Positions 16,226 through 62,126 of a stretch of DNA of 64,000 bases are shown here, in pieces; the first letter of the stretch is position 1, and every line of letters begins with the position of its first letter. The translations under genes and the position numbers were made by a program. Below the pieces are notes generated by a model. It ran no database searches. It was not told the DNA's origin and saw only the letters and a program-made list of their open reading frames with translations. This DNA comes from Giardia intestinalis (taxonomy: Eukaryota), in NCBI GenBank assembly GCA_000002435.2, contig CM018792.1; one strand, 5' to 3'.

Positions 16226-16265
16226 CCGCCCGTCTGTAAACTAGCCGGCCTTAAAAATCGCGGCC

Positions 16266-17525: not shown

Positions 17526-17540
17526 ATGGTGCCCGCGGGC

Positions 17541-17915: not shown

Positions 17916-17948
17916 TTTTTGATTATAAATTATGTCAGGATTGAGTAG

Positions 17949-46600: not shown

Positions 46601-48563
46601 GCACATACAACAGATTTACTCTATGGACAAGACAATAGCTACAACCTTGGTTTCAGATATCAACCTCAAGCACTTCTGTGATAGCATCTTGGAGTTGTGT
46701 AAAAAGAGCTGCATTAGAAGAAATCATGATCCTCTTCATATAGCGAAGTCTGCCACATCACCCATTCCATTCATGGCAACAACTATTAACCCAACGGATC
46801 TATGCAAGTCACACTACACGATGCTCATTTTGGAATCTATTGTATTGGATGACAAATTTCTTTTCCCTGCAAGTCTTGCACCGCCAAAACCGTCCTGGGC
46901 CACCATCTATCCTTCCATAATTGATACAAAGCTATTGCTGTTGACGATAAGTGACGGCTTTTTTATTACAGAAAATGACATACCATTAATGAATCTCGAG
47001 GAAGTAATGAACACCCCCGGCCTTGAGGTACCTGAGGATCCTCCTCGGGGCAGTATTCTAAAGCGAATCCAGCAGCTTATGCGTCTCGTACTGCGCATCC
47101 CTTCTCACTCTGCGTATAGTGCAATAGACACAGACAACGTCCGGATCAGCCTCACTCCAGACCTCTCTGTCTATGATGATCAGCACTTTCTTGAATACTA
47201 CCAGAAGGCCCAGGGACTCTCCAGCGATAAAGAGCAACTAAGGGCTGAGATCTCTCGGCTTGTAGAAAGTATCTCGCAGGTCCGTGGAATGAATATGGTT
47301 CAAGCTGAAGAGCTCGACGACTTTAACGATTATACAACTGTCAATACAACTCTCCGGCGCAGTAAAAACTATATTCCCCAGGATATTATTTCAGAGCTAG
47401 GTGTCGAAACAGCCATGTCTATGTCAAAGACAGCACTGCACAACTACTTAGAGAGGCAAGCTCAAAATAAAAGCCTCCTAAACACATGCTTCAAGGTTCC
47501 AAATCAACAGCGCTCTTTCAGAACATGCCTGAACATCATTAAGAAGCACGTTACTTCAGAAAGGAGAAAGCGCATGACAATCCTCTTGCGAGACGTACTC
47601 ATAGCACTTGGAAATGATCGGAAGTATCTCTTAGGCGTTAAGGTCCCGATAGCAAGTTCTATTCTACTAAATGATAAATACGTTCACAAATTAGACTCGC
47701 TGTTAGCGGAGAAGGAAGGCGCATACAACAGCACTAACGCTGCCAGTACACTAACTAAATGTGTCACCATTCCAAGAATAAATCTTGAGAAGTTCAGGCC
47801 CATTGCAACTCTCACACAAGTCGAGCTTGCCGAGGCACATACCGCAGAGGCAAAGATATCCACATATGCTCAGAACGTCAATCCATCAACCCTCCACTTT
47901 TACATTGACAACATTCTTGCAGAGATAATAGCCACGCAAAAGTACAAGGTTACCTACCTGAATACTCTCAAAGCGGATTTTCTGGCAGTCAGTACTTCTA
48001 TCTTGAATACCATTGCCTCTCGGAGCTGGGACATAATGCTACACTGTTACGAGTACCTCCACGATAACAAGACATATTACACCAATATCTACCCTAGTGA
48101 AGAGGACGCCCTCTATATCTTGATGCGAGAGTTTGAAGCAGATCTAGCCAACTTTCTTCTCAAGTATGTCATCTCTATCATCTTTCCGAGTCAACAAGAA
48201 CCCGCATGTATTCTCTGGTACATCTGTCAATACTTTCTAATGGATGCACAGCACGTAAGCCATGACGACTCTGGATTTAAGATCTCCACTACTACTTGGA
48301 AAATAACAGAGTCTTCTGATACTACGATGTATAGCTCAATGTCGTCTTTATCCTTTACGGCTGAAGTGCAGATCTCTTTTTCTGAGGAAAAGGAGTTGGA
48401 GTATAAGCAATATCTGATAGATAGCAAGGCAGAGCTTGCCCGTAGTGTGTCTAAGCAAGAACTGGACAATGCCAGCTATTTAGCTGCAGAGTCCTCTAAT
48501 GATAGTTCTCCGGATGAAGACCTGTCTGTCGCTTCTACCTCTAACAATGATAGGCACTCTTAG
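40626..48563 (+). CDS. CHD-family chromatin remodeler: a Q-rich N-terminus, tandem chromodomains and an SNF2 ATPase, 2645 aa
   Basis: Chromodomains YIFLIKWQRKAHCHATWELEDYL and YIYLVKWRDLPYSQVTDEYYEDL. SNF2 motifs: LRDHQIDGVKFL…ILADDLGVGKTIQTIAF (I), LIVVPISTLSAWQ, LAIDEAHSLKNS (II DEAH), LITGTPMQNSIEELFNLLNF (III), HRVLIFSQ…KFQRLQGSM, LLSTRSGGQGINLATADTVIIFDADYNPHNDLQAAGRVHRIGQ (V-VI). Gln-rich N-terminus (nt ~40900-41050). Confidence 0.85.
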   Translation: MADPQYSQQLLNIDAKLQSIYDECVCEVIGRHSVDANNAFSPAIRDDLYLLHQRVLTKQATEDDNARYRPLYLEISTAYTHKLRQLSTVDPALAQYLQYQQLQATQQMAQRSQQVQQVHQPPVQQQTQQQVQQQRNASDRLSQTSYMLEFAYQTQGQHTKDILRTLRAYYDSYAQQSHMPQVVESVFAQMKLIFCYLFCMIKLSGDSTKAAEIEQAYSLLCQEKSRAGAPLFASPELYKELEEETQMFLNSKQAQAQQYSYSQGSFASDAAQPLSIFQPVKEEALSYAHFGYVLLHPATQKQLYEVLKILCAQPSASQQQYQSVKAALVKYLYIFPRKTKNCWLNLNVDLYAKICPSSQTFPSAGLYQVLDYLKVQCYSLFQCIYEISRYIVTAIQVKSSGQDLSQAAAIINNFRINMFYDFKYNLYRPPYYNELPQPDPHLNEYYAEFVQPTVESLPNIESQISLMTQGPTGDPGLPLHQPQARAETKAEPQGLGKAEQQTRLQSELQNDSHRSFLNKYRELCIQVFQVSNITKPARDSYSKVIKDYNVAYNHLLSFGNTNSAEKQNAEFAARALYNKALAIQEDMRQKEQAYYTSLQQLSAYEQSINGSDDLRAEMEQIKQSVMDMYINKAAYQKAPPPTMQQRQRASTRQLTRSTTPSITPLHSLSSEAVSTMEESSESSEASPVFDDTEDTQNQAVSDELSDVPDHDTDVEEENYIGCVLDCKRIPMTSAWLYTPSLLIKPDPDPSTIGKYDFLRPKGIQRLGRSDGGIATVRIDFLYEDLDNVNNVIEISPEEENIKRSVDSSSRMSKGVRDLERSVIKESPQGEKQRTGITKVPSKDSLDDNIVSVQNASPLTAEKADVVDNHSIIADAELLTVKDSDQNGSLPQGEYQDPESKEKDDNPEKLDEANEPDGQEGHEDLTESSDTVVTPRTEERRAAAENEHVYIFLIKWQRKAHCHATWELEDYLMHLSSYVKVKNYKKKYEKIQGFIYNKDTDDISKEDVKDKIRSQKLQIRSYMIPEKIVGMRIDTELATHYNEKLTKIFNYMRTDSELNLRYSEAFAGAFTRNVGDGKLHYYPEFNNSDSEPVAITEFNFNDPDVFCNRQLDEDGYLPSYPIAHSSDGQGLLSEASQSSAIDKISGYIYLVKWRDLPYSQVTDEYYEDLLANPYIRHEYLHKLINDFKARSDAISQTLSKESSIGYDARPILSGDPQSEVDAVICSPHPSFLIDVSDNLVLRDHQIDGVKFLLISWLQKRNVILADDLGVGKTIQTIAFISALHNHFHVPGPFLIVVPISTLSAWQMALSDWCPNMTVVTLIGTKEDREVIVTHEFYFKPEGDQAELLSGDAAERSIPEKIPRFHILLTTPQMAVKHEDDLMSFQWRLLAIDEAHSLKNSASIRTTTFSRYKTDAKLLITGTPMQNSIEELFNLLNFIEPEVFPNIDVFACRDDKSVELFKNALQSWENTISTSAPSLNSCSEILSSQQRVDTIRSTIQPYILRRVKSVVEKCIPPRKELILRIHMTPLQISCSEWLLEQNYEMLTAKSYNSVKLQNLLMQLRKVCNHPYIIHDLKLHTANLKDIVDGSGKFQVLDKLLDKLNSEGHRVLIFSQLIKTLDILERYCFYKKYKFQRLQGSMTSEQRRRAINNFNEKNSKDFIFLLSTRSGGQGINLATADTVIIFDADYNPHNDLQAAGRVHRIGQSKPVTIYRLVTRDSVEERILDIGHRKLMLDYAIIQKKNESINLTISDQPAFGNKTPITGDSSQRSSADDPTRVDTSGSQAQAELSLLNKGTLAVNQPVETFSVINEQGEVVGTDTLSSVTVTNLKSITPAANEQEEQIMRHVVRFGAEQLTKMDHNAGSQQSSTSPETNFLDIEQILSGAEEVNYEDLSQNKFGKLPGNIFQLSDLSPDKSVKENKHENDQDFWRRIKDTIAANTSNDGARQITTGPLEQLLSPGKPAVNLVQFSFLQTREIMKIVKLLRRFGTTTNAHIQQIYSMDKTIATTLVSDINLKHFCDSILELCKKSCIRRNHDPLHIAKSATSPIPFMATTINPTDLCKSHYTMLILESIVLDDKFLFPASLAPPKPSWATIYPSIIDTKLLLLTISDGFFITENDIPLMNLEEVMNTPGLEVPEDPPRGSILKRIQQLMRLVLRIPSHSAYSAIDTDNVRISLTPDLSVYDDQHFLEYYQKAQGLSSDKEQLRAEISRLVESISQVRGMNMVQAEELDDFNDYTTVNTTLRRSKNYIPQDIISELGVETAMSMSKTALHNYLERQAQNKSLLNTCFKVPNQQRSFRTCLNIIKKHVTSERRKRMTILLRDVLIALGNDRKYLLGVKVPIASSILLNDKYVHKLDSLLAEKEGAYNSTNAASTLTKCVTIPRINLEKFRPIATLTQVELAEAHTAEAKISTYAQNVNPSTLHFYIDNILAEIIATQKYKVTYLNTLKADFLAVSTSILNTIASRSWDIMLHCYEYLHDNKTYYTNIYPSEEDALYILMREFEADLANFLLKYVISIIFPSQQEPACILWYICQYFLMDAQHVSHDDSGFKISTTTWKITESSDTTMYSSMSSLSFTAEVQISFSEEKELEYKQYLIDSKAELARSVSKQELDNASYLAAESSNDSSPDEDLSVASTSNNDRHS

Positions 48564-48593: not shown

Positions 48594-51500
48594 CTATTTC
48601 GTTGTGCTTGTGCTGTACTCTATCTCTACGTTATCCAGATTGTTTACGTCCAAGCCGAGAAATCGGGTGACATTCGCGGCTATAGAGACGTTGTTGACGT
48701 CATCCTCATGAGGAACAGCTGAATCGAATATATCTAGCACACAGGACGGAATATTATTGTCAGAGGCTGAAGCTATGGATGAACATTCCCCTAGATACGG
48801 TTGGTTGTGAGCTGTAGCAATGCACGCAGAGGAGCGTGATAAGTGGGCATTGGCTTTTTCATAAAAATGGAGCGAATTTGCGCTACTATTTCTGGATGTA
48901 AATGAGCTATTAGCAGTCCTGGGAGTATTTAAAATTGTCTTTTGAAACTTGACCGCATTTTTCAGATCTGGTAGATTATTTCTATTACTGGGGTTGCCAT
49001 CCAATAATAGTTCAGAATTGGCCGGCTCCAAGTGTAGCGCATTGGACTCTGGCAAGTCGTGATCACGACAGCTTTCTGACGTCTTCTCTTTCCCTGGCAA
49101 AGCAGTGGAGAGAAGCGTCTCGCAATCCGTGCTATCAGAATAGGAAGAGCTTTCCATGCTAACAAAACGAGACATTCTTTCAATCGCCTTGCACTGCATG
49201 CTCATATCAGAAAAGATCCCTGCTAAGGCAGTAGTAGAGCCGTGCTTCCGTAGAGGGAGCTTGTGTCCTTGCACACTGGATACTATCTTTGCCGAATCAC
49301 TCTTTTCCTGTGAGTCCATCCGCAAAATCTGAGAGCTAGTCTTCTGAGAAGGATAGTTAATACTGCCCTTGGCACTTAATTGACCAGATGAAGAGCCTGT
49401 TCCATGCCCTACTTTGTTTGCTTGTCCAGCCCAGATATTGCGTAATTGACTGTGGAGCGCGGCTATTCCTTTTGATTCGCTGGTAGCTGTGTGGAGAAGC
49501 ATTATCTGGTCATTAGTTAGCACCTCACTAGAGTTTTGTCGTAATTGAGCAGGTAATACACTAGTAATTTTCGGATACTCTGGAATTTTGGCTCCACTCA
49601 TCATTGCAGATGAATAACGAACCATCCTGGGACAAGGAGACTCCCGTTGGTCTGCTGGTGTTAGAGCATCATTAACGCATTCTGAGACACTATACCCACT
49701 AGTAATGCTTTCACCTAAGCGCTCTTGAAGGCGTTCTTTAAAGTCAGCCCGAAGATCAGCAGTGAAAGAAGGCGGCGCCTTAGAGAGAGTATTAACTGAA
49801 ACAGATCGAGGAGGAAACTCCAATTGACACTCTGATGCAGTCTTACTTCTAGATAAGCAACAAAGGTCATCGAAAGGAAAAATTCCCGTGCTGGTATGAA
49901 GATCAGCTTTAGAAATAGTCAGATCAACGGGAGTTATAGGAAGCCTAGCAGATAGCGACTGTGAATAACTTGATGAACCTATCAATGACAAGTTATTGGT
50001 GAGCAATGCATCCTTGTTACTTAGTTGGCGCTCTTCTTCAGCAATTGTTGCTAAGCCATTTAATGCAGATGAAATTGACTCTAGGGTAATGCAAGAGTCG
50101 GTGTTAACAGAATAGTAGCATCGCATTGTCTCAGAATCATTTTCAATGAAAGAGGGAACGCTGCTAGGGCTGCTAAGCAACGCGCAAGAGAACTCCATCG
50201 ATTCATCGTGTGGAGGTGAAAGGTTGTTGCTCTTCCTAATAGGTGATGTAGGCTCTGTAGAGTAGGGTTGTATCTCAGTAGTATAAGTAGATGAAGATGC
50301 AGCGGACTCTTCGTGGATATACTGACTGGCAAACACTTTATTCATTCCAGAAGTGGTAAGCTTAATCGAAGCACTCTTATATAAAGATTCGCGTCCTAAT
50401 ACATTAGACAGGCTTATCTGGGTTATCTGGGGGTCGTTAGCTGGTAACGGAGTAGTATTAACAGGATACTGAAGTGTGGTGTGTGAAATGTTCACAGTAG
50501 GACGCTGAAAAGAAAGACAACTAGAGTTGCGCTGTGTTTTTATCGTAGAGTACAGATGCTTAATCCAGGTGAGTCGGCTTATTGTGAGCTTCTCAAAATA
50601 CGGAACGGTAGAAACGAGGCATTCAAGCAAAACGCCCACCTGAATACTCTTGAGCGCTTTGATAAGTCCCCAGATGTTCCCAGCGCTCTTAAGGAGACTG
50701 TTACTGAAGATGTATTCCAGACTTCGTGTGCTCACTGTGGTGGCTTCAGAGTCCTGCAAAGTTGTCATATCATTGAGCAGCCCCAACGAAAAAAGATTAA
50801 ATAACTTAGAAAACGCAACGTGTGTTCCTATCGAAAGCTCCTTGATATTTACCTCAATATCAACGAAGGGATTTATCTCTGTGAAATTGGTACCAGTAGC
50901 ATTGAAAACAGAATGAAATGAAGACTTTCGTTTTGTAGATTTAACCATGCTGTGATCATAATTAGAGATATAAGGCATCACTCTAACAAAAGATGACTTC
51001 CAAGGAATTGTGTTTAGCATAAGGTAGATATCGTCATGTAGTTGGTCAAGAACATTGTCGCCAGCTGCAACATTCATTAAGTCAAATTGGCCACCAGATA
51101 GTTTGCCAGTACTCCAATCAGTATGCCTACTATCATCATTTAAGAAGGTCCTTGGCCTTGCTTTATAGATAGGTAGGTTCGACGTGCTTGAGCAAGCAGT
51201 CTCATAGAGCTTCAGCATTGGCACCTTCTTTATTCTGGAGCCAACTGAGCCACTGCTATCTTGAGCTGAGCTGGTGCTCTCCTCCGATGAAGCCCTGAAT
51301 CGCCCAGCATGTAAAATACCGCTTTGAGATTTGTGCGGCGTGATAGCCTCGTCTGGTTTGGTAGGCTTGGAAAAGGCATTAGAGTTTTCAGTTTTGGATG
51401 ACTGCAAAGCGGCAAGAAGCAACTGCTTGCTATTATGGGGCGTTTGAATAAGCAAACTATAAATTTCATCATTACTAATAGACGATCGTCTAAAGATGTG

Positions 51501-54500
51501 TCTGTTTTCCCGTACAAGTTTGTCTCTACGTCGAACAGTTACCCAGAAGTGATACTTACGCAGTCGAAGACTCATTTTTAGTAGCTCCTCTCCATGTGTG
51601 CTATTTTTGATAAGAAAACGGAGAGCAAGATCAATGCTCTTTCGGATTTCTTTAGAGTCTATGTGTGCCTGAATTCTGTCTAATAGGGTGTTAGAGACAC
51701 TAGCCTTGGAAGAACACATGTGCGATGCAAAGGACAGCGAGTCTGGATAAAGCACACCTGCAAACAGAGTGGATCTAAGACCAGGATCACTGGCTCCAGC
51801 GGGACTATGATGAAGTGATTCTGTGCATTGGTGCATGTCAGGCTTGCCGTCTATATGTTCAGAAGAATTGGCAGATGAGGTGTATTTCGAGGAAAAGTTA
51901 ATAGTGAACAATTGATCAGGAGATGCAGAAAGCGGGAAGTTATTGGCATCAAAGAATGGATGATTGACAACTTCAACCATGGTATATCTCTGCATTGGTG
52001 AAGGAGCCAAGAGCCCGCAAAGAAGGTCCGCAAGAAGGAGGGAGAGGTGTGTAGATATTTGCATGGCTTCTTCAGAAGAGCGTTGAAGAGGCAGCTCCCG
52101 GTGCTTCCCGATAAGGACAGAGTAGAGGGCGACGCCAAACTGCCAGACATCAGATGGCATTCCCATATAAAGATTGGGGGTTGCAGCAGATGGTGTGTTC
52201 CAGACACGAAGGCTTTCAGGTGGCATGCACTGTCGCGTTCCAGCTATGCTACTTAGATATGCTGGAAAGACATGTCTGCTTAGCGGATGATGACATATGA
52301 ACTCGGAGGAACTAAAAAGGACTGTGAGTCGCTCAGCCAATTTATCTTCGAAAATGCTGGATGTGAAGTACGTATTGAGTAACTCAAGCAAAAAATAAAA
52401 ATCTTGAAAGACTTGTGGTTGCATGTCTGAGATCAAAAGCTTGTTGAGGTACCTGATAACATGATGGAGATAGAGCCGCCTTGTAGATGAGGATTTCCGT
52501 GAAAGCACCACCTGACTGAAAGAAAAGTTGCTTGCCTTGTGTACACGTGGTAATCGGCGTGCGAAGGATTTGGAGCTAGCGTCGTGTCGTTGAAGGTTGT
52601 TAAAAGTTAAGGCTTTAGATGTAAGATTTAGTGCACAATGAAGGATGTGTGAGGGTGAGGAGTAAGTTGAAGTATTAGTCTGAATGTCGCTGAGTAGCAC
52701 GGGTCCATTCTTTTCGAGAGTAGAGCAACTAGTTTCTTGATTCCTTGTATCAAGAAGATTAGCTCCATCGGCACCATGAGAGTGGCACTGTCCCATATTA
52801 TCAAGGAGCTGAGAGTCAGAGCTACTTTCGTTATCACTACAAACCAGAGGCTGATTTTCATCTGTGAGTGTAGTTATAAACTGTGTAGTCGAGCTTACGG
52901 GACTAGAGCATATTTCTATGTCATTGGGAGTCATTGATGCCGGTAAAATGAGATCTGAGGTAGTCTGATCCGGTACAAAAAATCTCTCAGTGGTATCTGT
53001 ACAGAAAGTAGACTTTGCAAACGACAATTCAGACGAAGAGCTTGTAGACAGTGTGAACGTTTCCTGCAAGTGACCACATTTTGAACTATTGGTTAGAAAC
53101 GATTTCAGCTCATTGGTACCACCAAAGATCTTTGTTTTGGGACGCAACTTGTCTAAATTTTCACACGAAACGTAATAGTCAGTGTGTAAAATGTTTGGTT
53201 GATGTGAATCCGGTTCATAGCGTATAGTGCTAAAGAAGAAGTCTTCTAGAAATGCATCCAGAAAATCAAAGTTAGTAAGGAGGGATGACCAATTATCGGT
53301 GAATACATCGATAAGGACTTTTATTAGCTCATGCACTATTTTTCCTAGCAAGTCTTGCAATGATGGGAGCACCTTACCGTGAACAGATAGATCTTTTGCT
53401 GTGTCAAAATCGCTTAACTTGGCGACAAGAAAGTACGTGTTTATATTTGAGCGCTTAATAGCGTGCTCAAAGGCTACTCTATTCGTGGAATCAAACTGGC
53501 TGCTGAAAATAAGTGAATAATAAATGTAAAAAGGGGCTATCTTAGCAAACTCTAGCGAGGTCACTGAAGTATCCAGAATAGTCTCCACAGAATCATATGC
53601 TCCCAAGGAAATTGGGGGTATCAAGTGTTTGTTGCAGGAACTAGCGCTGAAATCAGCGTTGGTAGACCTGCAAACCTTTGGTTTGCTCTTAGCTGCCAAA
53701 CTGCGCTTAGTAGATGAAAAAGGATCGTGCTCATATTGAGTGGTGGTTTTAGCTGCGTTGGGTTGTTGAGTACAGGGGCACGGAGACTCGAATTCAGGAG
53801 TTGCTGGTTTGAAAGGCTGTATCCAAGTGCGAAGGCATTTGATGCTATCGGGATCCGAATTGTTTGTATCTAGTGAAGAACACAGATTGTAAAGGTTGGA
53901 GAGGTCTATGCCGTACATTAACGAAGACTTATATGGCTTCTCTGATGTAACTGAGTGAGATGGCGAGTTATCATTGTAATCAATCAACACATTTTCTAAC
54001 TTTATATCATGGTGGACAATTAATAAGCTATGTAGATATTCTAAGCCGTATGCAATCTGATAGAATATTAGTACAATATCCCTCAGACTTAGAGTTTTAA
54101 GATTGGAGCTAAGGTCTTTCATGTGACACCGCTCAATCACATATATAAACTTGTTATTATAGGAATCGATATCATCTGGAGGCCTGATGGCTGAGGTTCC
54201 GTTCACGTCAAATATCTGGCCTAGATGTGTTGGGCTAAGTATCCCCTTTACCATATTGTAGGTGATAGTTTTGTTTGGTCTGGAAAAGGATGTGGAAACA
54301 TGGAGGTGGAGAGAATCGACAGTCAGGTTTTGAGAAGACGAAAAAAGCCCGCCAAAATTGCTGTAAATAACGCCAGCATTGAGCATTCGAGTAGGAGCCG
54401 AGGTATTAACGTCTTCTTGTTTTAAATATGGAGTAGGTACTACAAGAAGATTGAAAAAGACCTCATAAAGCCGAACCACGTTGGGGTGTTGTAACCTGTC

Positions 54501-54875
54501 CATGAGAGATGCCGCAGACCATAAAAATTTATCCGCTGCTTCCTGTGTGCCCAAAGTTTTCGCTAATCGTATTCTGTCAACCATTCTTAGGACAAATGTC
54601 TTACGTAGTACTGTGTTTTCAGCAGTATAAACATCGGCGTAGGACCCCTTCCCGATCTGGTTATGTAATTTGTATTCATGAATAGAAACAGATCCGTCTG
54701 GATAAACACGCGTCCAAATACGATCTCTAGCCTGACCGTGCTTGAGCGGTGGGTAGAAGATAAGTTTGACCATAAATTCTAGGACAGTACGATAATGAGT
54801 AGGAGAACTCTCGGACTCGGTGGAGTTTTCGCTTCGAATAGAGTTGGTAGTAAACAAACCAAAGGAATCATCCAT
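48594..54875 (-). CDS. Giant divergent protein kinase, 2093 aa. The kinase motifs are dispersed over about 900 N-terminal residues with very large inserts.
   Basis: GKGSYADVYTA is the Gly-loop (aa ~75). RLQHPNVVRLYEVF is the alphaC/beta4 region. LIVHHDIKLENVLID is the catalytic loop (aa ~288). KLSDFDTAKDL is a DFG-like motif (aa ~489). PPESL…PSDVWQFGVALYSVLIG is the APE and subdomain IX (aa ~900). A long Ser-rich tail follows. Confidence 0.6.
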   Translation of the reverse strand: MDDSFGLFTTNSIRSENSTESESSPTHYRTVLEFMVKLIFYPPLKHGQARDRIWTRVYPDGSVSIHEYKLHNQIGKGSYADVYTAENTVLRKTFVLRMVDRIRLAKTLGTQEAADKFLWSAASLMDRLQHPNVVRLYEVFFNLLVVPTPYLKQEDVNTSAPTRMLNAGVIYSNFGGLFSSSQNLTVDSLHLHVSTSFSRPNKTITYNMVKGILSPTHLGQIFDVNGTSAIRPPDDIDSYNNKFIYVIERCHMKDLSSNLKTLSLRDIVLIFYQIAYGLEYLHSLLIVHHDIKLENVLIDYNDNSPSHSVTSEKPYKSSLMYGIDLSNLYNLCSSLDTNNSDPDSIKCLRTWIQPFKPATPEFESPCPCTQQPNAAKTTTQYEHDPFSSTKRSLAAKSKPKVCRSTNADFSASSCNKHLIPPISLGAYDSVETILDTSVTSLEFAKIAPFYIYYSLIFSSQFDSTNRVAFEHAIKRSNINTYFLVAKLSDFDTAKDLSVHGKVLPSLQDLLGKIVHELIKVLIDVFTDNWSSLLTNFDFLDAFLEDFFFSTIRYEPDSHQPNILHTDYYVSCENLDKLRPKTKIFGGTNELKSFLTNSSKCGHLQETFTLSTSSSSELSFAKSTFCTDTTERFFVPDQTTSDLILPASMTPNDIEICSSPVSSTTQFITTLTDENQPLVCSDNESSSDSQLLDNMGQCHSHGADGANLLDTRNQETSCSTLEKNGPVLLSDIQTNTSTYSSPSHILHCALNLTSKALTFNNLQRHDASSKSFARRLPRVHKASNFSFSQVVLSRKSSSTRRLYLHHVIRYLNKLLISDMQPQVFQDFYFLLELLNTYFTSSIFEDKLAERLTVLFSSSEFICHHPLSRHVFPAYLSSIAGTRQCMPPESLRVWNTPSAATPNLYMGMPSDVWQFGVALYSVLIGKHRELPLQRSSEEAMQISTHLSLLLADLLCGLLAPSPMQRYTMVEVVNHPFFDANNFPLSASPDQLFTINFSSKYTSSANSSEHIDGKPDMHQCTESLHHSPAGASDPGLRSTLFAGVLYPDSLSFASHMCSSKASVSNTLLDRIQAHIDSKEIRKSIDLALRFLIKNSTHGEELLKMSLRLRKYHFWVTVRRRDKLVRENRHIFRRSSISNDEIYSLLIQTPHNSKQLLLAALQSSKTENSNAFSKPTKPDEAITPHKSQSGILHAGRFRASSEESTSSAQDSSGSVGSRIKKVPMLKLYETACSSTSNLPIYKARPRTFLNDDSRHTDWSTGKLSGGQFDLMNVAAGDNVLDQLHDDIYLMLNTIPWKSSFVRVMPYISNYDHSMVKSTKRKSSFHSVFNATGTNFTEINPFVDIEVNIKELSIGTHVAFSKLFNLFSLGLLNDMTTLQDSEATTVSTRSLEYIFSNSLLKSAGNIWGLIKALKSIQVGVLLECLVSTVPYFEKLTISRLTWIKHLYSTIKTQRNSSCLSFQRPTVNISHTTLQYPVNTTPLPANDPQITQISLSNVLGRESLYKSASIKLTTSGMNKVFASQYIHEESAASSSTYTTEIQPYSTEPTSPIRKSNNLSPPHDESMEFSCALLSSPSSVPSFIENDSETMRCYYSVNTDSCITLESISSALNGLATIAEEERQLSNKDALLTNNLSLIGSSSYSQSLSARLPITPVDLTISKADLHTSTGIFPFDDLCCLSRSKTASECQLEFPPRSVSVNTLSKAPPSFTADLRADFKERLQERLGESITSGYSVSECVNDALTPADQRESPCPRMVRYSSAMMSGAKIPEYPKITSVLPAQLRQNSSEVLTNDQIMLLHTATSESKGIAALHSQLRNIWAGQANKVGHGTGSSSGQLSAKGSINYPSQKTSSQILRMDSQEKSDSAKIVSSVQGHKLPLRKHGSTTALAGIFSDMSMQCKAIERMSRFVSMESSSYSDSTDCETLLSTALPGKEKTSESCRDHDLPESNALHLEPANSELLLDGNPSNRNNLPDLKNAVKFQKTILNTPRTANSSFTSRNSSANSLHFYEKANAHLSRSSACIATAHNQPYLGECSSIASASDNNIPSCVLDIFDSAVPHEDDVNNVSIAANVTRFLGLDVNNLDNVEIEYSTSTTK

Positions 54876-55078: not shown

Positions 55079-57559
55079 ATGCGCCAAGAGAACAAGGCTC
55101 ACCGCGCATCTAGTACAGCAAAGAGTAAGGGAAAGGTTCCTGCCAAAGTTCGAGGGGCTTCAGTGAAAAAGACCGACGGAAAAAGCATTCGCCGGAAACT
55201 GTCGAAAGAGGAGGCTAGGCTTCGCCAGCAATCTCAGAATAAGGCTAAAAACCTAACGAAAAGCATGCCGAAGTATATTGCGCTCCTAGCTCTCAGTGCT
55301 GGCATTGATGCTCGCATTGTCTGGGAACAGCTTTCCACAGCCACTAAGTGTGTCAAGGTCCGACTTCCAGATATAGCCACACAGTCTGCTGTCCATGTGT
55401 TTCAAGGTCAGGGCTATATCCCAATTTTTCCTGACATGCCTCACACCGAACTAGGCCTCATGGATTGCATGGACTCTTTAATGCATGCAGACTTTTTCGT
55501 TTTCATTGTTCATGCAGAAGGGGTGAGCGATATGGGCCGTTTAGTCATACAAGCGGCCCATGCACTCCATTTCAATCAACCTCAGGTTGTTCTAGGTCTC
55601 AGCACAAGTACAGCTGTATCTCACGCCCTTGACAAAGCATTTACAGCAACATTTGAAATATTGGGGTGTAATACCGAAACCTTCACAGATCTAGGGATGC
55701 GGCCTGTGAGTGGTAACGCTCCACCTTTATCTGGAATATCAAATCGACAGAAAAAATTCATCAGGGAGCTTTTCCATCCAGATGCACATGTGATTGCGCC
55801 GTATGACGTTTCACGACACGGTGATTCACTGATGCGATACCTTAGCAACACCGTCGTCTCTGTCGAGCAAACCCGACCTGGATGGATAAGCAAGCGCCCG
55901 GTTGTTCCAATAATTGGATATGAGTTCAAGGAGATAGACTCAGAGACACAGGCTGTCCGGTTCGATGTAGTAGGATGGCTCTCTGGTCAACTCCCACTTA
56001 CTGCAAACCAAAATGCTTATTTACAATCGGTCGGGGCATGCAAGATTCTCAATATCGATACAATAAACGTTCTAAATCCTGCATTCCTTTGTGACGATAA
56101 GTATGCTATCTACGTTCGATCATTTCAGCACTTACAAACAAGAAGCAAGGATGCTGAGGGTTGTGAGCAAAGGAGTGGAGTAGCAGCGAAGGAAACGGTT
56201 ATACAGACCATAATGGAGGCCATGCGTGCAGAAGAGGCGTCTGATAGCTGTGATACATTTGACGCGACTGTTCAAGCGCTTGCCAATCAAGAGGAAACCG
56301 ACACAGTCGATGAAGAGAAGATTCAGATGGGCAGTGACTATGATAGGAAGCTTCAATATCAAAGTGACGAGCCTTGGGAGTATCCTGACGAGTTGGACAT
56401 CCACCCTGCATTCGAACTCCGGACGCTTCTTAAGGGCTGGCGAGGTCTCAAGAGCATGAGGACTTCGCCCTGGAGGATTGCAAGTGAGGAGGTTCCTGAT
56501 GGCTTTGAGGGTCTACACCACATTCATCAACCGGTACAGTTTTACGACTATGTAAGAAAACAACAAATTATGGGTGGACTTACAGCACCTGGGAATTTTC
56601 TTCGCATAACATTGGAGTTTATTTCATCCAGTCATAGCCACCTTATTTCTGCAGGAATTTCAGATGAATTTGCACCAAATCTTGAGGATATATACAGTCA
56701 GTATAGAGAGTTTCTGAATACATTGATGGAAAATGTTACTAGAAACAAGACCGTTGGTCTATGCGGCCTTTACTCCTGCGAAAACAAGGACTCAATAGCT
56801 CATGCTACAATGAGTCTCTACGGTCTTCCTAGTACGTTTGGTGTTCCAGATGCTCCACCAATCAAACCGGGAGAAGAACAACCCCTCACACATGAGCATC
56901 CGTTTATCTTATATGTTGGATTTCGCAGGCTCTACACTGTTCCCCTCCCGAGCCAACCTCTTACACCGACGCGGAGCAAGTTGCAGCGCTATTACCATGG
57001 TCAGGAGTCGAGCATCACCCTTTCTTTCGTGTGCCCCATGTTCGTAGAATATCAAAACCTACCCCCAGTTCTTGCTTTTATCAATAAGAGTATCTCACCC
57101 GGATACTGTAGCATCAAGGAAGACTTTAAGTTTTGTGGCTCTGGCAAGCTCACAAGCCTTGACACCTCCTTCATTACGTTGCAGCGGATAGTCCTCGCTG
57201 GAACGCCCTTTCATATATCGAAGCATCGTGTTGTTGTAAGACACATGTTCTTTTATCCTGAGGATGTTAAGTACTTTGCTCCAGTAGATCTTTATACCGA
57301 AAGCAATGTTCGGGGCCGTATTACGCAATCCATTGGGATGAAGGGATACTTCAAAGCATTCTTTGATGGGAAGGTTGATCACAGCATGGCTATCAAACTG
57401 GCTGTCTACCGGCAGGCGTTCCCGACGCTTGTCAGCCTGCGCTTCGACGCGGGCGACATGCTCCTCTTCGAGCCTGTGGCGGAGTTCTTCGTGAGGAGGA
57501 TCGCGGCGACGCAGGAGGAGCTCGCTCGCCTCGCCGCGGCCCCAGGTGGGGACGAGTGA
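55079..57559 (+). CDS. TSR1: Pre-rRNA processing / 40S biogenesis protein TSR1 (Bms1/Tsr1 family, lacking a GTPase P-loop)
   Basis: The C-terminal block HRVVVRHMFFYPEDVKYFAPVDLYTESNVRGRITQSIGMKGYFKAFFDGKVDHSMAIKLAVYRQAFP matches the Tsr1/Bms1 C-terminal domain (…[44 protein letters not shown]…SLYKRVFP). The N-terminus is K/R-rich. There is no GxxGxGKS motif. The length, 826 aa, fits Tsr1. Confidence 0.7.
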   Translation: MRQENKAHRASSTAKSKGKVPAKVRGASVKKTDGKSIRRKLSKEEARLRQQSQNKAKNLTKSMPKYIALLALSAGIDARIVWEQLSTATKCVKVRLPDIATQSAVHVFQGQGYIPIFPDMPHTELGLMDCMDSLMHADFFVFIVHAEGVSDMGRLVIQAAHALHFNQPQVVLGLSTSTAVSHALDKAFTATFEILGCNTETFTDLGMRPVSGNAPPLSGISNRQKKFIRELFHPDAHVIAPYDVSRHGDSLMRYLSNTVVSVEQTRPGWISKRPVVPIIGYEFKEIDSETQAVRFDVVGWLSGQLPLTANQNAYLQSVGACKILNIDTINVLNPAFLCDDKYAIYVRSFQHLQTRSKDAEGCEQRSGVAAKETVIQTIMEAMRAEEASDSCDTFDATVQALANQEETDTVDEEKIQMGSDYDRKLQYQSDEPWEYPDELDIHPAFELRTLLKGWRGLKSMRTSPWRIASEEVPDGFEGLHHIHQPVQFYDYVRKQQIMGGLTAPGNFLRITLEFISSSHSHLISAGISDEFAPNLEDIYSQYREFLNTLMENVTRNKTVGLCGLYSCENKDSIAHATMSLYGLPSTFGVPDAPPIKPGEEQPLTHEHPFILYVGFRRLYTVPLPSQPLTPTRSKLQRYYHGQESSITLSFVCPMFVEYQNLPPVLAFINKSISPGYCSIKEDFKFCGSGKLTSLDTSFITLQRIVLAGTPFHISKHRVVVRHMFFYPEDVKYFAPVDLYTESNVRGRITQSIGMKGYFKAFFDGKVDHSMAIKLAVYRQAFPTLVSLRFDAGDMLLFEPVAEFFVRRIAATQEELARLAAAPGGDE

Positions 57560-57569
57560 ACGAAAGATG

Positions 57570-57640
57570 TGCGCATGCCGGGGCTCGAACCCGGAACGAA
57601 AGCTTGGGAAACTCTCATGATACCCTTTCACCACATGCGC
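57570..57640 (-). tRNA. tRNA-Gly (anticodon CCC)
   Basis: 71 nt on the minus strand: GCGCATG-TG-GTGA-AAGGGTA-TCAT-G-AGAGT-TTCCCAA-GCTTT-CGTT-CCGGG-TTCGAGC-CCCGG-CATGCGC-A. The 7-bp acceptor stem is perfect. The T-loop is TTCGAGC. The anticodon loop has U33, CCC at 34-36 and A37. The 3' end lies 11 nt from the TSR1 stop. Confidence 0.75.
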
Positions 57641-59210: not shown

Positions 59211-62126
59211 ATGTATGTATTTTGCTGGGAACTGTCATCATCCTCAGCAGTTAGAATATCTAGGCTTACAGGTCTCCCGGAAGATATAATCCATTCGGTT
59301 CTTCCACGAGGATCTACATCTTTACAGAGAGTCTTACAGCAGCATCGCACTCTTGCTCGTCTTCCAGGAGAGGTTTGCGTATATAGAATAGAGGTTCATA
59401 GTGACCGGAAGACACTGTGTGTGGTTCGTCAGCGCTGTTCAGTCCGTCTAAGCCTTGCTGCAATGTGCACTGACTCCTCTAAGCTGAGTTTATCTCATTC
59501 TGAATGCCTCTGTATTCTAACTGCCTTTCTGGCTCTACTACAAGAAGTGGGCACTCAGTATCCCAATATTGTACAGTTTCTTGAAGAAGAACAGTTCTTT
59601 ATGACGCTCACAGGCTCAATCGCAGTTGAGATTCCAGTTGAAATTCTACTATTTAGCAGGCAGAAAAGACAGATGGGATCTGAGGAATTGATGGCTGTAC
59701 TTGCCCGTACCTATCTTACGGACTCACTCTCCAACCTAATAACTCAGTTTGTTACATGTTATATTCGTCTGTTTTATTATCGAAAGGCTACCTTATCAAA
59801 AGCAGAGCTAACTCTTCCGGACGAGCTTCAAGATCTGACTAGATTTAATGATACCCTTCGGGGCCTTAATTCTTTCTCTAGAAATTCGTCTATCAATATG
59901 CTAACTCTTTATAATTATATGCAGACACCCAATGCTCAACTGGCCCTGACACAAATGGAGGTGTCTCGTGGCATTGAGCGAGATCCAGTCTTTAAGACCA
60001 CACAACTTCATCGTGCCATAAAATCATCTGATGCCCCCAGCATTCATCTTTATTCGCGCCTCTATGGAGGACTCAGAGACATATCTGGACAAACAGGCCT
60101 TCACTATCTGACCGGGCTAGGCTCGAGCATTACATATGATGCTATTTTAAATCTTCTTCCTCTAGAGGTCCAATGCGAAGACAGGATTGGCTATTGTGCT
60201 GGATCATACTTTTTGCAATTAGAACGATATGAAGAGGCAGCACTTCTTAGCTTCTTTGAGCCCCTAGTCGATGATAGACATAACAGTATTTTAGTTCGGC
60301 TGATCGATGATATCACTATTTCAGAGGCAGGCCGGCAGGAGGCTTCTTCTAAGAAAAGCTTTCTTGAGAAGACAAGGTTCTTCTCGTCACTTATTGAATC
60401 ACAATCACATTTCTTACTTATTAACCTACTCTCAAATCAACTTGGCGTTCGGGGTGCCAAAGGACGAACAGCTTTGATTGCAGCAACACAAGGGAACCAC
60501 AAAGAGCTTGTAGCTGCACTGACTCCTTACGAGTCAAATATTTCTGATCTAGAAGGAGACGGTTATGCACTGGCCTATGCTATGTACAACGGAAGTCCCT
60601 CTATTGTTGAGCTGCTTGCTTCTTTAGAGGCATCCATACTACTAACGACTGGTTTCACGAACACGATGATCTGTGCAGCCTCTCCTTTCCCTCCTGGCTC
60701 TAGTGTATCCGGTCTGTTGAAATCAAAAGAACTGCGCAAGCGCACGTCTAAGGGCTGGACTGCGCTTATGTTTGCCGCGGTTGCTGGCAACCTTTGGGCT
60801 GTCAAGCAACTTGCCCATTCTGAGGCGGGTCTGACCAACTATGAAGGCCGGACAGCGGGCACTCTGGCGTATCTTAAGGGATATGCGTCGATTGCCGAGT
60901 GGCTGTCAAAGTTCGAAACTGTCCGTACCAACACTGGAGATACCCTGCTTCACAAGGCATGCCGAGAGTATATAAAAGACCCTACAGACGAGAATCTTAT
61001 GAATGTTCGTTCTCGACTCTCCATGGTTAATGAGTATACAGAATCCGGAGATCTAGCGATTTCCTTGGCTATTAAAGAAAGATGCAATCCTTTGATTAAG
61101 CTTTTAGATCTAGAATACAGGACAAGATTACCTGAAGTAGGCTACTCTAGTAAGATATCTCAGAGGAGTTTTCACAATGCAACGCCGCTAATGCTTGCAG
61201 CCCTGTTATGCATCCACGATCTCCCCGAAGCCATGATTGCTGCATCCGCAAGAATGCAGGATAATGAAGGCTTTACTGCACTGATGTGTGCAGCACGATC
61301 CGGATGTATCGAGCTGGTCCAGAGATTGATACCATATGAAAAGAAAATGCAGACGGAAAGCGGATTTACAGCGTTGATGTGTGCAGCACAAGAGGGCCAC
61401 GTCGCTGCCGTGCAAATGCTTTTAGAAGTAGGCAACGAATCGACCATTCAGGACAACAATGGAAATACGGCGCTTTTTCGTGCGCTACACAACGGCCACG
61501 ACGAGTGTAGCAAGATCCTTTTGCCACTAGAATACGATCTCAACAATAACTCTGGGGTTTCTATGCTTATGATAGCTGCAGAGAGCAGCACAAGCCTGTC
61601 ATTGCTTAACTCACTTGTCGCCCCACAATACAGCCAGCTCCGGCGGCGGCAACTTGATGGGAAAACAGCACTGATGTGCGCTGCAGCAGTCAATAATACC
61701 TTCGCTGTGACGGTGCTATTACAACAGGAAGACTCTAGAGAAGTAGGGATGCAAGATGAACAGGGCTTTACCGCTCTCATGTATGCGGCTTCTGCGGGGC
61801 ATGTAGAGACATGCCGCTTACTTGCACCATACGAAAGTGGCATGCGAGCAGTCAGGGAACAAACTGCTGCTATGCTAGCTGCAGAGACAGGACACCTGGA
61901 GTGCTTTTCTATTCTTCTGCCTATTGAAGGAGCAATGAAGAAAAGCTCTGGGTGGTCTCTCGTCCACAGTGCGGCAGTGGGAGGATCAATAGAAATATTG
62001 AGTAGGTTGGCCCCCACTCCGCAAGAACTTATTGACGGAGCCGACTCACCTTTGTCCTTGGCGAAGAGACACCTCAGATACGAGATGCTCAACTATATAG
62101 AGACCTGTTTACAAAAGAAGCAGTAG
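59211..62126 (+). CDS. Large ankyrin-repeat protein (Giardia 'Protein 21.1' family), 971 aa
   Basis: More than 12 ankyrin repeats from aa ~430 onwards, for example GRTALIAATQGNHKELVAALTPYE, GWTALMFAAVAGNLWAVKQL, GFTALMCAARSGCIELVQRLIPYE, GFTALMCAAQEGHVAAVQMLLEVG, GNTALFRALHNGHDECSKILLP and GFTALMYAASAGHVETCRLLAPYE. The N-terminal 400 aa are helical and not ankyrin. Confidence 0.7.
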   Translation: MYVFCWELSSSSAVRISRLTGLPEDIIHSVLPRGSTSLQRVLQQHRTLARLPGEVCVYRIEVHSDRKTLCVVRQRCSVRLSLAAMCTDSSKLSLSHSECLCILTAFLALLQEVGTQYPNIVQFLEEEQFFMTLTGSIAVEIPVEILLFSRQKRQMGSEELMAVLARTYLTDSLSNLITQFVTCYIRLFYYRKATLSKAELTLPDELQDLTRFNDTLRGLNSFSRNSSINMLTLYNYMQTPNAQLALTQMEVSRGIERDPVFKTTQLHRAIKSSDAPSIHLYSRLYGGLRDISGQTGLHYLTGLGSSITYDAILNLLPLEVQCEDRIGYCAGSYFLQLERYEEAALLSFFEPLVDDRHNSILVRLIDDITISEAGRQEASSKKSFLEKTRFFSSLIESQSHFLLINLLSNQLGVRGAKGRTALIAATQGNHKELVAALTPYESNISDLEGDGYALAYAMYNGSPSIVELLASLEASILLTTGFTNTMICAASPFPPGSSVSGLLKSKELRKRTSKGWTALMFAAVAGNLWAVKQLAHSEAGLTNYEGRTAGTLAYLKGYASIAEWLSKFETVRTNTGDTLLHKACREYIKDPTDENLMNVRSRLSMVNEYTESGDLAISLAIKERCNPLIKLLDLEYRTRLPEVGYSSKISQRSFHNATPLMLAALLCIHDLPEAMIAASARMQDNEGFTALMCAARSGCIELVQRLIPYEKKMQTESGFTALMCAAQEGHVAAVQMLLEVGNESTIQDNNGNTALFRALHNGHDECSKILLPLEYDLNNNSGVSMLMIAAESSTSLSLLNSLVAPQYSQLRRRQLDGKTALMCAAAVNNTFAVTVLLQQEDSREVGMQDEQGFTALMYAASAGHVETCRLLAPYESGMRAVREQTAAMLAAETGHLECFSILLPIEGAMKKSSGWSLVHSAAVGGSIEILSRLAPTPQELIDGADSPLSLAKRHLRYEMLNYIETCLQKKQ

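What the first reader, a model, noticed from the sequence alone, without database searches (positions are those of the whole stretch)
52000..54875. Kinase catalytic motifs spread over about 900 residues inside a 2093-aa protein
The Gly-loop sits at aa ~75, the HxD catalytic loop at ~288, a DFD motif (not DFG) at ~489, and the APE and subdomain IX motif at ~900. Large insertions separate the motifs, for example about 110 aa between the alphaC/beta4 region and the hinge. Either this is an extremely insert-expanded active kinase, or it is a pseudokinase scaffold.
Basis: seen in the sequence. Interest (0 to 1): 0.55.

Follow-up and report, generated by a model that had tools for sequence, protein, structure and literature searches.

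The report
Insert-split Giardia kinase GL50803_17378

Summary
ORF 48594-54875 (-) encodes a 2093-aa protein identical to Giardia intestinalis WB XP_001705358 / A8BRB5, which is GL50803_17378. The 2011 Giardia kinome paper classed it as Other/Other-GL1 and noted "two large inserts", "probable K72->R" and "DFG motif not clear".

Four core pieces (aa 64-146, 239-299, 480-497, 873-980) form one complete kinase domain:
- Spliced together, they match Pfam Pkinase over positions 1-263 of 263 (E 5.5e-38).

What I add:
- The DFG equivalent is DFD 489-491, so there are three inserts (92, 180 and 375 aa), not two.
- Insert positions and lengths are kept in G. muris, and all three inserts are under purifying selection.
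- About 180 insert residues around the activation segment are predicted helical.
- The signature of beta3 Arg, no alphaC Glu, H[HQ]D, DFD and a basic motif after the kinase domain is shared with paralogue GL50803_17392 and with two giant genes from an unidentified organism.

Sequence cannot decide between an atypical active kinase and a KSR-like nucleotide-binding pseudokinase. Novelty is low and interest is modest.

The parts
48594..54875 (-). Whole gene, 2093 aa: GL50803_17378 (XP_001705358 / UniProt A8BRB5), kinome class Other / Other-GL1.
   Evidence: ORF list. 100% identity over 2093 aa to the WB protein. Manning et al. Table S1 entry.
51936..54686 (-). Complete insert-expanded kinase domain, aa 64-980 (917 aa in place of the usual ~260).
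54438..54686 (-). Core piece 1, aa 64-146: beta1-beta4 of the N-lobe. It holds Gly-loop G75xG77xxA80, beta3 V-L-R97-M (Arg in place of Lys72) and alphaC with Ala121 in place of Glu91.
   Evidence: Alignments. pLDDT 86-95. R97 is invariant in 6 orthologues and in 4 paralogues or relatives.
54585..54587 (-). Codon of Arg97, the residue at the position of the catalytic beta3 lysine.
   Evidence: Translation. This alignment column is Lys in at least 90% of the 65 sequences of A2.
54162..54437 (-). Insert 1, aa 147-238 (92 aa), between beta4 and beta5/hinge.
   Evidence: 95 aa in G. muris. 20% identity to G. muris against 51-67% in the core pieces. dN/dS 0.07 for WB versus P15. Mostly pLDDT below 55. 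No Pfam hit.
53979..54161 (-). Core piece 2, aa 239-299: beta5, hinge, alphaD, alphaE and the catalytic loop H288-H-D290-I-K292-L-E-N295. It is non-RD (HHD; HQD in G. muris and in the paralogues).
   Evidence: pLDDT 87-96.
53439..53978 (-). Insert 2, aa 300-479 (180 aa), between the catalytic loop/beta7 and beta8. The N-terminal part (300-424) is variable and predicted disordered. The C-terminal part (425-479) is predicted as three helices.
   Evidence: 151 aa in G. muris. dN/dS is 0.43 for aa 300-424 and 0.13 for aa 425-479. pLDDT is 26-56 (mean ~35) in the first part and 65-76 in the second.
53385..53438 (-). Core piece 3, aa 480-497 (TYFLVAKLSDFDTAKDLS): beta8 plus the DFG-equivalent D489-F-D491.
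   Evidence: Translation. D489 aligns with the DFG Asp in all 65 sequences of A2. It is the top hit of a beta8-DFG PSSM in all six orthologues (z 3.7-4.3), while GIDLS scores z 0.5 and KDLS z 0.2. It is the best of five splice variants, 166.0 bits against 148-163. pLDDT 94. DFDT[AS] is conserved in the paralogues.
52260..53384 (-). Insert 3, aa 498-872 (375 aa), inside the activation segment between DFD and the P+1/APE region. Helices lie at both ends (aa ~502-552 and ~783-861) and the middle is disordered (aa ~553-784).
   Evidence: 377 aa in G. muris. dN/dS is 0.07 for 498-552, 0.17 for 553-784 and 0.16 for 785-872. pLDDT is 60-77 at the ends and 22-45 in the middle. No significant Pfam hit.
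51936..52259 (-). Core piece 4, aa 873-980: P+1 loop (G879-T880), P885-P-E887 (APE), alphaF with D909-V-W911, alphaG-alphaI and R963.
   Evidence: Mostly pLDDT 70-94.
51465..51566 (-). Conserved basic motif after the kinase domain, aa 1104-1137: RLRKYHFWVTVRRRDKLVRENRHIFRRSSISNDE.
   Evidence: Translation. Invariant residues are shared with G. muris, and the motif is present in all family members including the paralogues. dN/dS 0.08 for aa 1081-1160. Function not tested.
48594..51935 (-). C-terminal 1113 aa (aa 981-2093) plus stop codon. It has no recognisable domain. Conserved islands lie at aa 1081-1160 and 1261-1445.
   Evidence: No Pfam family. dN/dS 0.05-0.08 in the islands and 0.17 overall. 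The AlphaFold2 model of aa 1075-1450 had pLDDT 32.5 and is uninformative.

Best explanation
The region encodes the N-terminal half of GL50803_17378, a member of the small Other-GL1 family of Giardia protein kinases.

What is shown:
- It holds one eukaryotic-type Ser/Thr kinase domain with a CAMK-like fold.
- Three insertions cut its ~270-residue core into four pieces. They lie in the beta4-beta5 loop (92 aa), between the catalytic loop and beta8 (180 aa), and inside the activation segment (375 aa).
- The pieces fold back into a normal bilobal kinase in the model.
- The inserts are translated and are old. They are partly disordered linkers. About 180 residues immediately flanking beta8-DFD and preceding the P+1 loop are predicted helical at moderate confidence.

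What is inferred:
- These helices may form a helical accessory module on the C-lobe, next to the activation segment. This packing was not checked, because model coordinates could not be read.
- The active site is non-canonical but maintained: Arg97 for the beta3 Lys, no alphaC Glu, a non-RD HHD loop and DFD for DFG. Asp290, Lys292, Asn295, Asp489, Glu887, Asp909 and Arg963 are all invariant.
- My best reading is that the site still binds ATP-Mg.
- I also think the protein is a low-activity or specially regulated atypical kinase rather than an inert scaffold. The helical insert module and the conserved basic motif after the kinase domain are the likely regulatory or docking elements.
For: Identity and prior annotation:
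-.

One complete domain:
- Pfam Pkinase 1-263/263 on the spliced core, E 5.5e-38.
- End-to-end BLASTP alignments to CIPK and to an unnamed kinase, with other CIPK/CaMKK/ciliate hits covering 93-99% of the splice in the search table.
- D290, N295, D489 and D909 are invariant columns in a 65-kinase alignment.

Co-folding:
- AlphaFold2 core pLDDT of 90 or more.

DFD is the DFG equivalent:
-.

The inserts are real, translated and constrained:
- Lengths are 92/180/375 aa here and 95/151/377 aa in G. muris.
- dN/dS is 0.07-0.43, below 1 in every insert, against 0.06 for the core.
- The gene order Tsr1 / kinase / SNF2 is conserved in assemblages E and B.

The active site is under selection:
- Beta3 Arg, H[HQ]D[IV]KxxN, DFDT[AS], GT..xPE, DxW and RYT are identical in six orthologues, in the 17392 paralogue of two Giardia species, and in two genes of an unidentified organism.

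Precedent:
- KSR2 has Arg at the beta3 Lys position and still binds ATP-Mg and weakly phosphorylates MEK1 (PMC4718504).
- DFD occurs in the active kinases MNK1/2 (my own knowledge, not tested here).
Against: - Lys72 -> Arg is the classic kinase-dead substitution, and the alphaC Glu that normally positions the lysine is absent. By the K72/D166/D184 rule used in both Giardia kinome papers, this is a pseudokinase.
- No experimental data on activity, localisation or partners were found for this gene.
- The AlphaFold2 model used an alignment containing ordinary kinases. Assembly of the core is therefore expected from homology and is not independent proof. Overall confidence is low (mean pLDDT 57, pTM 0.55).
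- The helical insert module has only pLDDT 60-77, and I could not inspect its packing.
- On profile score alone, the DFD piece beats an unrelated piece (EDFFF, aa 534-553) by only 3 bits.
Confidence: 0.5

Rival explanations
1. It is a KSR-like pseudokinase scaffold. The domain keeps the kinase fold and probably nucleotide binding, but does not transfer phosphate at a useful rate. The long inserts and the 1100-aa tail would serve as docking surfaces that assemble other proteins.
For: - Arg97 replaces the beta3 Lys, and Ala121 replaces the alphaC Glu. Both changes are fixed across Giardia species and paralogues.
- It meets the bioinformatic pseudokinase definition used by Manning et al. and by the 2025 re-annotation.
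- Giardia has an unusually high share of pseudokinases.
- KSR2 shows that a beta3-Arg domain can be mainly a scaffold while keeping D166, N171 and D184.
- About 65% of the 'domain' and all of the tail are non-catalytic sequence under purifying selection.
Against: - All residues needed for chemistry other than K72 and E91 are invariant over divergences where the core is only about 50% identical and the inserts 16-20%. These residues are D166, K168, N171, D184, APE Glu, D220 and R280.
- Other pseudokinases I recall (HER3, STRADalpha; my own knowledge, not tested here) have lost at least one of these.
- Manning et al. themselves scored the protein 'Active?'.
Confidence: 0.42
2. The motifs are unrelated chance matches in a long, serine-rich, low-complexity protein, and no single kinase domain exists.
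For: - The inserts and the tail are 37-41% S/T/N/Q/P.
- The DFD piece alone is too short to be significant, with PSSM z of about 4.
Against: - Pfam E is 3e-25 on the native protein and 5.5e-38 on the splice, with full profile coverage.
- The pieces are collinear in the correct order.
- Entropy is about 4.0 bits in the inserts and main core pieces.
- The motifs are conserved to G. muris and to the paralogues.
Confidence: 0.01
3. The 'inserts' are not part of the protein. They would be unrecognised introns or an annotation or assembly artefact joining separate genes.
For: None beyond the unusual length. No proteomic data were available to me.
Against: - A single uninterrupted ORF of about 2090 aa exists in assemblages A, E and B, two further lineages and G. 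muris, with near-identical insert lengths.
- dN/dS is below 1 in every insert, so they evolve as coding sequence.
- The insert ends carry residues invariant between species.
- Giardia has very few introns (general knowledge).
Confidence: 0.02

Closest known systems
GL50803_17378 itself, as catalogued in the Giardia kinome (Manning et al. 2011, Genome Biol 12:R66, Table S1: GK050, Other / Other-GL1)
   Same: The sequence is identical. The paper already records GxGxxA (GKGSYA), VAIK -> FVLR ('probable K72->R'), HHDIKLEN, DxW after a large insert, 'two large inserts' and the call 'Active?'.
   Different: - The paper could not find the DFG ('possible DFG (DLS)', 'not clear') and counted two inserts.
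- Here the DFG equivalent is DFD 489-491, which splits the second 'insert' in two, giving three in all.
- The family was called Giardia-specific. I find two members in an unidentified non-Giardia assembly.
GL50803_17392 (Other-GL1 paralogue; assemblage B EET01052 = P0154, G. muris TNJ29011 = P0153)
   Same: - It shares the N-terminal [KR]DRIW motif, GxGxxA, beta3 Arg (AAMR), no alphaC Glu, HQDIKLEN, ISDFDTA, GTxxxLxPE, DAWQ and RYT.
- It has the same basic motif after the kinase domain, and three inserts at the same three positions.
   Different: - The insert lengths differ: 203/173/358 in assemblage B and 180/91/193 in G. muris, measured motif to motif.
- Insert sequences are not alignable apart from the helix after DFD and the segment before the P+1 loop.
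- The tails differ.
KSR1/KSR2 (mammalian kinase suppressor of Ras)
   Same: The beta3 Lys is replaced by Arg while D166, N171 and D184 are retained. KSR2 binds ATP-Mg, and its status as active or pseudokinase is debated (PMC4718504).
   Different: - KSR is a TKL/RAF-related protein with no large inserts.
- There is no specific sequence relationship. The best hits here are CAMK-like, including CIPK, CaMKK, PLK4, MARK and PHKG2.
- The resemblance is functional analogy only.
MNK1/MNK2 (MAP kinase-interacting kinases)
   Same: DFD in place of DFG in a CAMK-group kinase, with inserts in the catalytic domain (my own knowledge, not tested here).
   Different: - MNKs keep the beta3 Lys and the alphaC Glu.
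- Their inserts are tens of residues, not hundreds.
Other insert-bearing protist kinases (Giardia ncPKDD A8B532 with domain boundaries 3-655; Plasmodium kinases)
   Same: [quoted passage not shown] These are described as common in Giardia and Plasmodium (PMC12538575).
   Different: - This case is at the extreme end: 917 aa here and up to about 1400 aa in relative P0156.
- The insert positions, and for two inserts the lengths, are conserved between Giardia species.
- Parts of the inserts are predicted helical at moderate confidence.

Membership tests
Eukaryotic protein kinase superfamily (Pfam PF00069 Pkinase) | Significant full-length match to the family profile. | tested here: met
   The native protein scores 89.5 bits against a cut-off of 31.7, in 3 stretches. 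The spliced core scores 131.3 bits over profile positions 1-263 of 263.
Eukaryotic protein kinase superfamily (Pfam PF00069 Pkinase) | Bilobal kinase fold. | tested here: met
   [not shown]
Catalytically canonical protein kinase (Hanks-Hunter invariant residues) | Beta3 Lys (K72) and its alphaC Glu partner (E91). | tested here: not met
   Arg97 and Ala121 occupy these columns. Both changes are fixed in all orthologues and R-type paralogues.
Catalytically canonical protein kinase (Hanks-Hunter invariant residues) | Catalytic loop Asp (D166), Lys168, Asn171 and the DFG Asp (D184). | tested here: met
   D290, K292, N295 and D489 are invariant. The loop is HHD (non-RD), and DFG reads DFD.
Catalytically canonical protein kinase (Hanks-Hunter invariant residues) | APE Glu, subdomain IX Asp and subdomain XI Arg. 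| tested here: met
   E887, D909 and R963 are invariant.
Pseudokinase (bioinformatic definition: lacks at least one of K72, D166, D184) | Absence of at least one of the three residues. | tested here: met
   K72 is replaced by Arg. The definition comes from Manning 2011 and the 2025 re-annotation. Meeting it says nothing about measured activity.
Pseudokinase (functional sense: no phosphotransfer) | Lack of catalytic activity. | not testable with these tools
   This needs a biochemical assay. No published data were found.
Other-GL1 (Giardia kinome family of Manning et al.) | Being one of the listed genes (17378, 17392, 6624) or an orthologue of one. | tested here: met
   100% identical to the GL50803_17378 protein sequence given in Table S1.
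CAMK group / CAMKL, CaMKK or PLK4-like kinases | Specific clustering with one of these families rather than generic kinase similarity. | tested here: inconclusive
   [not shown]
KSR family | RAF-like TKL kinase domain with CA1-CA4 regions. | tested here: not met
   No KSR- or RAF-specific hits appear among the best matches, and no other Pfam domains were found. Only the beta3 Arg is shared.

The most novel reading that the evidence does not exclude
The Other-GL1 R-type proteins (17378, 17392 and the two giant genes from the unidentified organism) could be a distinct, catalytically competent kinase class with three unusual features.
- A beta3 Arg pairs with the second Asp of DFD and so replaces the universal Lys72-Glu91 pair. 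Arg and DFD co-occur, whereas the Arg-less relatives keep DFG.
- The activation segment has been replaced by a conserved helical domain built from discontinuous insert segments.
- A CAMK-style basic autoregulatory or calmodulin-binding segment follows the domain.

This would be a new solution for organising a kinase active site and its regulation, and it would not be confined to Giardia.
Probability: 0.15. Interest if true: 0.6.

Novelty: already known. Interest (0 to 1): 0.3.

Why it matters
- Giardia has one of the smallest and most divergent kinomes, and its kinases are being pursued as drug targets.
- Whether beta3-Arg proteins such as 17378 and 17392 are enzymes or scaffolds decides two things. 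It decides whether they count in the roughly 80-kinase core kinome, and whether ATP-site inhibitors could act on them.
- Fixing the DFG equivalent (DFD) and the true insert boundaries gives a defined 'mini-kinase' construct and clear point mutants (R97K, D290N, D489N) for testing this.
- The conserved position and length of the inserts, their purifying selection and the predicted helical parts suggest that at least some protist kinase 'inserts' are functional modules, not junk.
- Beyond that, the finding is a re-discovery of an annotated gene.

Tried and rejected
- **hmmalign of a kinase profile to aa 1-1010.** It aligned only the N-terminal half and could not place beta8/DFG. I replaced it with a PSSM scan and a splice-variant test.
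- **Alternative DFG sites.** GIDLS (D324) and KDLS (D495), which are my reading of the 2011 'DLS' suggestion, scored PSSM z of 0.5 and 0.2. GIDLS is not conserved in G. muris. EDFFF (aa 545-549) scores only 3 bits below DFD in the splice test, but it is not conserved in G. muris or the paralogues.
- **WNK-style relocated lysine.** The corresponding Gly-loop position is Ala80, so there is none (sequence).
- **A substitute acidic residue on alphaC.** E112 and D115 are invariant, but they lie 9 and 6 residues from position 121, off the face that points to beta3. This is geometric inference only.
- **AlphaFold2 model of the conserved C-terminal region, aa 1075-1450.** Mean pLDDT was 32.5, so it is uninformative and I did no fold search on it.
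- **Identifying the organism behind Logan contig SRR31929897_37476.** I searched with a neighbouring WD40 protein and got only generic WD40 hits.
- **Supplementary tables of the 2025 kinome re-annotation.** They are not held, so I could not see how A8BRB5 was classed there.
- **Literature searches for the gene ID.** They returned only the 2011 paper.
- **Chance or low-complexity matches, and intron or mis-assembly explanations.** Both were rejected; see the rival explanations.

Full report
**1. What is there**

The finding lies in the 5' half of a single minus-strand ORF, 48594-54875, that encodes 2093 aa. The protein is 100% identical over its whole length to Giardia intestinalis WB XP_001705358.1 / UniProt A8BRB5, annotated "Kinase". 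The window is therefore a piece of a Giardia chromosome. Neighbouring genes include a VSP, an SNF2/chromodomain helicase, Tsr1 and an ankyrin-repeat protein. The order Tsr1 / kinase / SNF2 is conserved in assemblages E and B.

**2. Check of the observation**

- G75-K-G77-S-Y-A80.
- H288-H-D290-I-K292-L-E-N295.
- D489-F-D491.
- P885-P-E887.
- D909-V-W911.
- R963.

They are not chance matches:
- Pfam Pkinase scores 89.5 bits (E 3e-25) in three collinear stretches.
- PDB kinases (PLK4, CaMKK2, MARK, Aurora) match in three collinear pieces, aa 64-141, 242-303 and 894-980.
- I spliced aa 60-142, 238-301, 478-497 and 875-985 into a 274-aa sequence. It matches Pfam Pkinase from position 1 to 263 of 263 in one stretch (131 bits, E 5.5e-38).
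- The same splice aligns over 93-99% of its length to CIPK, CaMKK and ciliate kinases at 26-32% identity, with E down to 3e-18 in a database of 5.8 billion proteins.
- Shannon entropy is 3.8-4.1 bits in the inserts and in three of the four core pieces, so the low-complexity explanation fails; the 18-residue beta8-DFD piece gives 3.1 bits.

**3.

*VAIK lysine and catalytic Asp.* The beta3 position is Arg97 (V-L-R-M), and the alphaC Glu position is Ala121 (Thr in G. muris). D290, K292, N295 and D489 are present.

*Structure prediction.* I modelled aa 45-990 with AlphaFold2, using an alignment of five orthologues and 59 ordinary kinases.
- Overall confidence was low: mean pLDDT 57, pTM 0.55.
- The four core pieces had pLDDT of about 90 or more.
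- The pieces therefore co-fold into one bilobal kinase domain.
- The caveat is that the alignment contained kinases, so this confirms consistency rather than giving independent proof.
- Foldseek gave only half-domain alignments, because it cannot bridge the inserts.

*Giardia kinome classification.* Manning et al. 2011 list the gene as GL50803_17378 (GK050), Other / Other-GL1, a "Giardia-specific family". Their notes read:
[quoted passage not shown] The essence of the finding is therefore already published. The 2025 re-annotation states that large disordered inserts are common in Giardia kinase domains. No other paper mentions the gene.

**4. What I can add: the DFG equivalent and the insert map**

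D489-F-D491, in the context VAKLSDFDTAK, is the DFG equivalent. The evidence is:
- MAFFT aligns D489 with the DFG Asp in all 65 sequences.
- A beta8-DFG PSSM built from non-Giardia kinases has its top hit at this site in each of the six orthologues (z 3.7-4.3). GIDLS scores z 0.5 and KDLS z 0.2.
- In a splice-variant test the DFD piece scores highest: 166.0 bits, against 148.4 without any piece and 156-163 with other pieces. The margin over one unrelated piece is only 3 bits.
- Conservation is what decides. DFDT[AS] is invariant in G. muris and in the paralogues, and the alternatives are not.
- pLDDT for this piece is 94.

The domain therefore has three inserts: aa 147-238 (92 aa), 300-479 (180 aa) and 498-872 (375 aa).

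**5. Nature of the inserts**

- Position and length are conserved in G. muris: 95, 151 and 377 aa, against 92, 180 and 375 here.
- Sequence is only 16-20% identical to G. muris, against 51-67% in the core pieces.
- dN/dS between assemblages A and E:

| Region | dN/dS |
|---|---|
| Core (all four pieces) | 0.06 |
| Insert 1 | 0.07 |
| Insert 2, aa 300-424 | 0.43 |
| Insert 2, aa 425-479 | 0.13 |
| Insert 3, aa 498-552 | 0.07 |
| Insert 3, aa 553-784 | 0.17 |
| Insert 3, aa 785-872 | 0.16 |

All parts therefore evolve as translated, constrained sequence. This excludes introns or junk.

AlphaFold2 predicts helices at pLDDT 60-77 in three places: three helices just before beta8 (aa ~430-479), two just after DFD (aa ~502-552) and four before the P+1 loop (aa ~783-861). 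The rest is below 50. These helical parts contain the residues that are invariant with G. muris. In the paralogues, an amphipathic stretch aligning to the helix after DFD and the segment before GT..PE are recognisable. I infer a helical accessory module around the activation segment. I could not inspect coordinates to confirm its packing.

**6. Family**

A full HMMER search of 1.84 billion representatives, using a profile of the kinase region, found members well above the background of ordinary kinases, which scored about 70-90 bits.

| Protein | Source | Score |
|---|---|---|
| P0154 | G. intestinalis assemblage B, EET01052 | 198 bits |
| P0153 | G. muris, TNJ29011 | 205 bits |
| P0155 (3664 aa) | Logan contig SRR31929897_37476, organism unidentified | 192 bits |
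| P0156 (3788 aa) | Same 126-kb contig, neighbouring gene | 165 bits |
| P0158 | Unknown organism | 126 bits |

- By the motifs AAMR and DAWQT quoted in Table S1, P0154 and P0153 belong to the GL50803_17392 lineage (P0154 orthologue; P0153 carries AAMR but DAWQF).
- Apart from P0158, these proteins share GxGxxA, beta3 Arg, no alphaC Glu (C or S), HQDIKxxN, DFDT[AS], GT....[APS]PE, DxWQ and RYT. They also share a basic motif after the kinase domain, LRxYHxW..RRR....NR...RR[SA]S.
- Inserts occur at the same three positions with very different lengths, measured motif to motif. Beta4 to HxD is 158-223 residues (about 60 in the CIPK aligned). HxD to DFD is 64-201 (about 20). DFD to APE is 193-963 (about 25-35).
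- The Gly-loop-to-RYT span ranges from 595 to 1408 residues.
- P0158, and GL50803_6624 according to Manning, lack the Arg and keep DFG.

**7. Mechanism**

Shown: there is a single kinase fold with three conserved inserts and a non-canonical but strictly conserved active site.

Inferred: nucleotide and Mg binding are retained, because N295, D489 and K292 are intact. There is a precedent in KSR2, whose beta3 Arg692 coexists with bound ATP-Mg and weak MEK phosphorylation (PMC4718504). DFD is compatible with activity in MNK1/2 (my own knowledge). HHD/HQD makes this a non-RD kinase, so activation-loop phosphorylation may not be needed. At the position of PKA Thr197, G. intestinalis has Ser876, three relatives (P0153, P0155, P0156) have Glu, and G. 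muris has Gly preceded by two Asp (reading of the sequences).

Conservation of the whole catalytic apparatus across paralogues argues that the site does something. Loss of both K72 and E91 argues against efficient catalysis. I put about 0.5 on an atypical, weak or specially regulated kinase and about 0.4 on a nucleotide-binding scaffold. Sequence alone cannot separate them.

**8. Dead ends**

- The AlphaFold2 model of the conserved C-terminal region (aa 1075-1450) had pLDDT 32.5.
- No Pfam domain was found in the inserts or the tail.
- The organism of the Logan contig could not be identified.
- The supplements of the 2025 paper are not held.

**9. Verdict**

The increments are:
- the DFD assignment, and so three inserts rather than two;
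- the evolutionary constraint on the inserts and the predicted helices in them;
- the family-wide signature, including the basic motif after the kinase domain;
- relatives outside the sequenced Giardia species.

Interest is modest (0.3). The novelty class is "already known".

Noticed in passing
[not shown]
   Followed up: partly
window 54585-54587 (-) and 53403-53411 (-); relatives P0153-P0156, P0158: Beta3 Arg always co-occurs with DFD. The relatives without the Arg (P0158 with Tyr; GL50803_6624 with VSVY according to Manning) keep DFG. An Arg97-Asp491 ion pair might replace the Lys72-Glu91 pair. This probably reflects a single evolutionary event, and I could not test it without model coordinates.
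   Followed up: partly
L003 / L004 (Logan SRR31929897_37476, 126 kb): Two giant Other-GL1-like genes (3664 and 3788 aa) lie side by side, separated only by a 284-aa RING-finger gene, in a compact and apparently intron-poor contig of an unidentified organism. In P0156 the kinase domain spans about 1400 residues, with 963 between DFD and APE. The family is therefore not strictly limited to sequenced Giardia species.
   Followed up: partly
window 12000-18000; ORF 10580-14350 (-): G+C rises to 0.63-0.67, against about 0.45 in the rest of the window. The ORF at 10580-14350 is a variant-specific surface protein (Pfam VSP, E 1.6e-97). The many long overlapping ORFs on both strands in this stretch are probably artefacts of the high G+C.
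   Followed up: partly
window 40626-48563 (+), 55079-57559 (+), 59211-62126 (+), 31275-33038 (-): The neighbours are a 2645-aa SNF2/helicase/chromodomain protein that ends 30 bases from the kinase stop codon (convergent), a Tsr1/BMS1 ribosome-biogenesis protein, an ankyrin-repeat protein and an EF-hand protein. The Tsr1 / kinase / SNF2 order is conserved in assemblages E and B.
   Followed up: partly
window 39762-39844 (+) and 57570-57640 (-): There are two tRNA genes (Rfam RF00005, 58 and 55 bits). The second lies just downstream of the Tsr1 gene, inside a spurious 191-aa minus-strand ORF.
   Followed up: no
window 50541-51095 (-), aa 1261-1445: This C-terminal island is as constrained as the kinase core (dN/dS 0.05, 23% identity to G. 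muris), yet it has no Pfam match and gave no confident AlphaFold2 model. It is probably a lineage-specific folded or binding region.
   Followed up: partly
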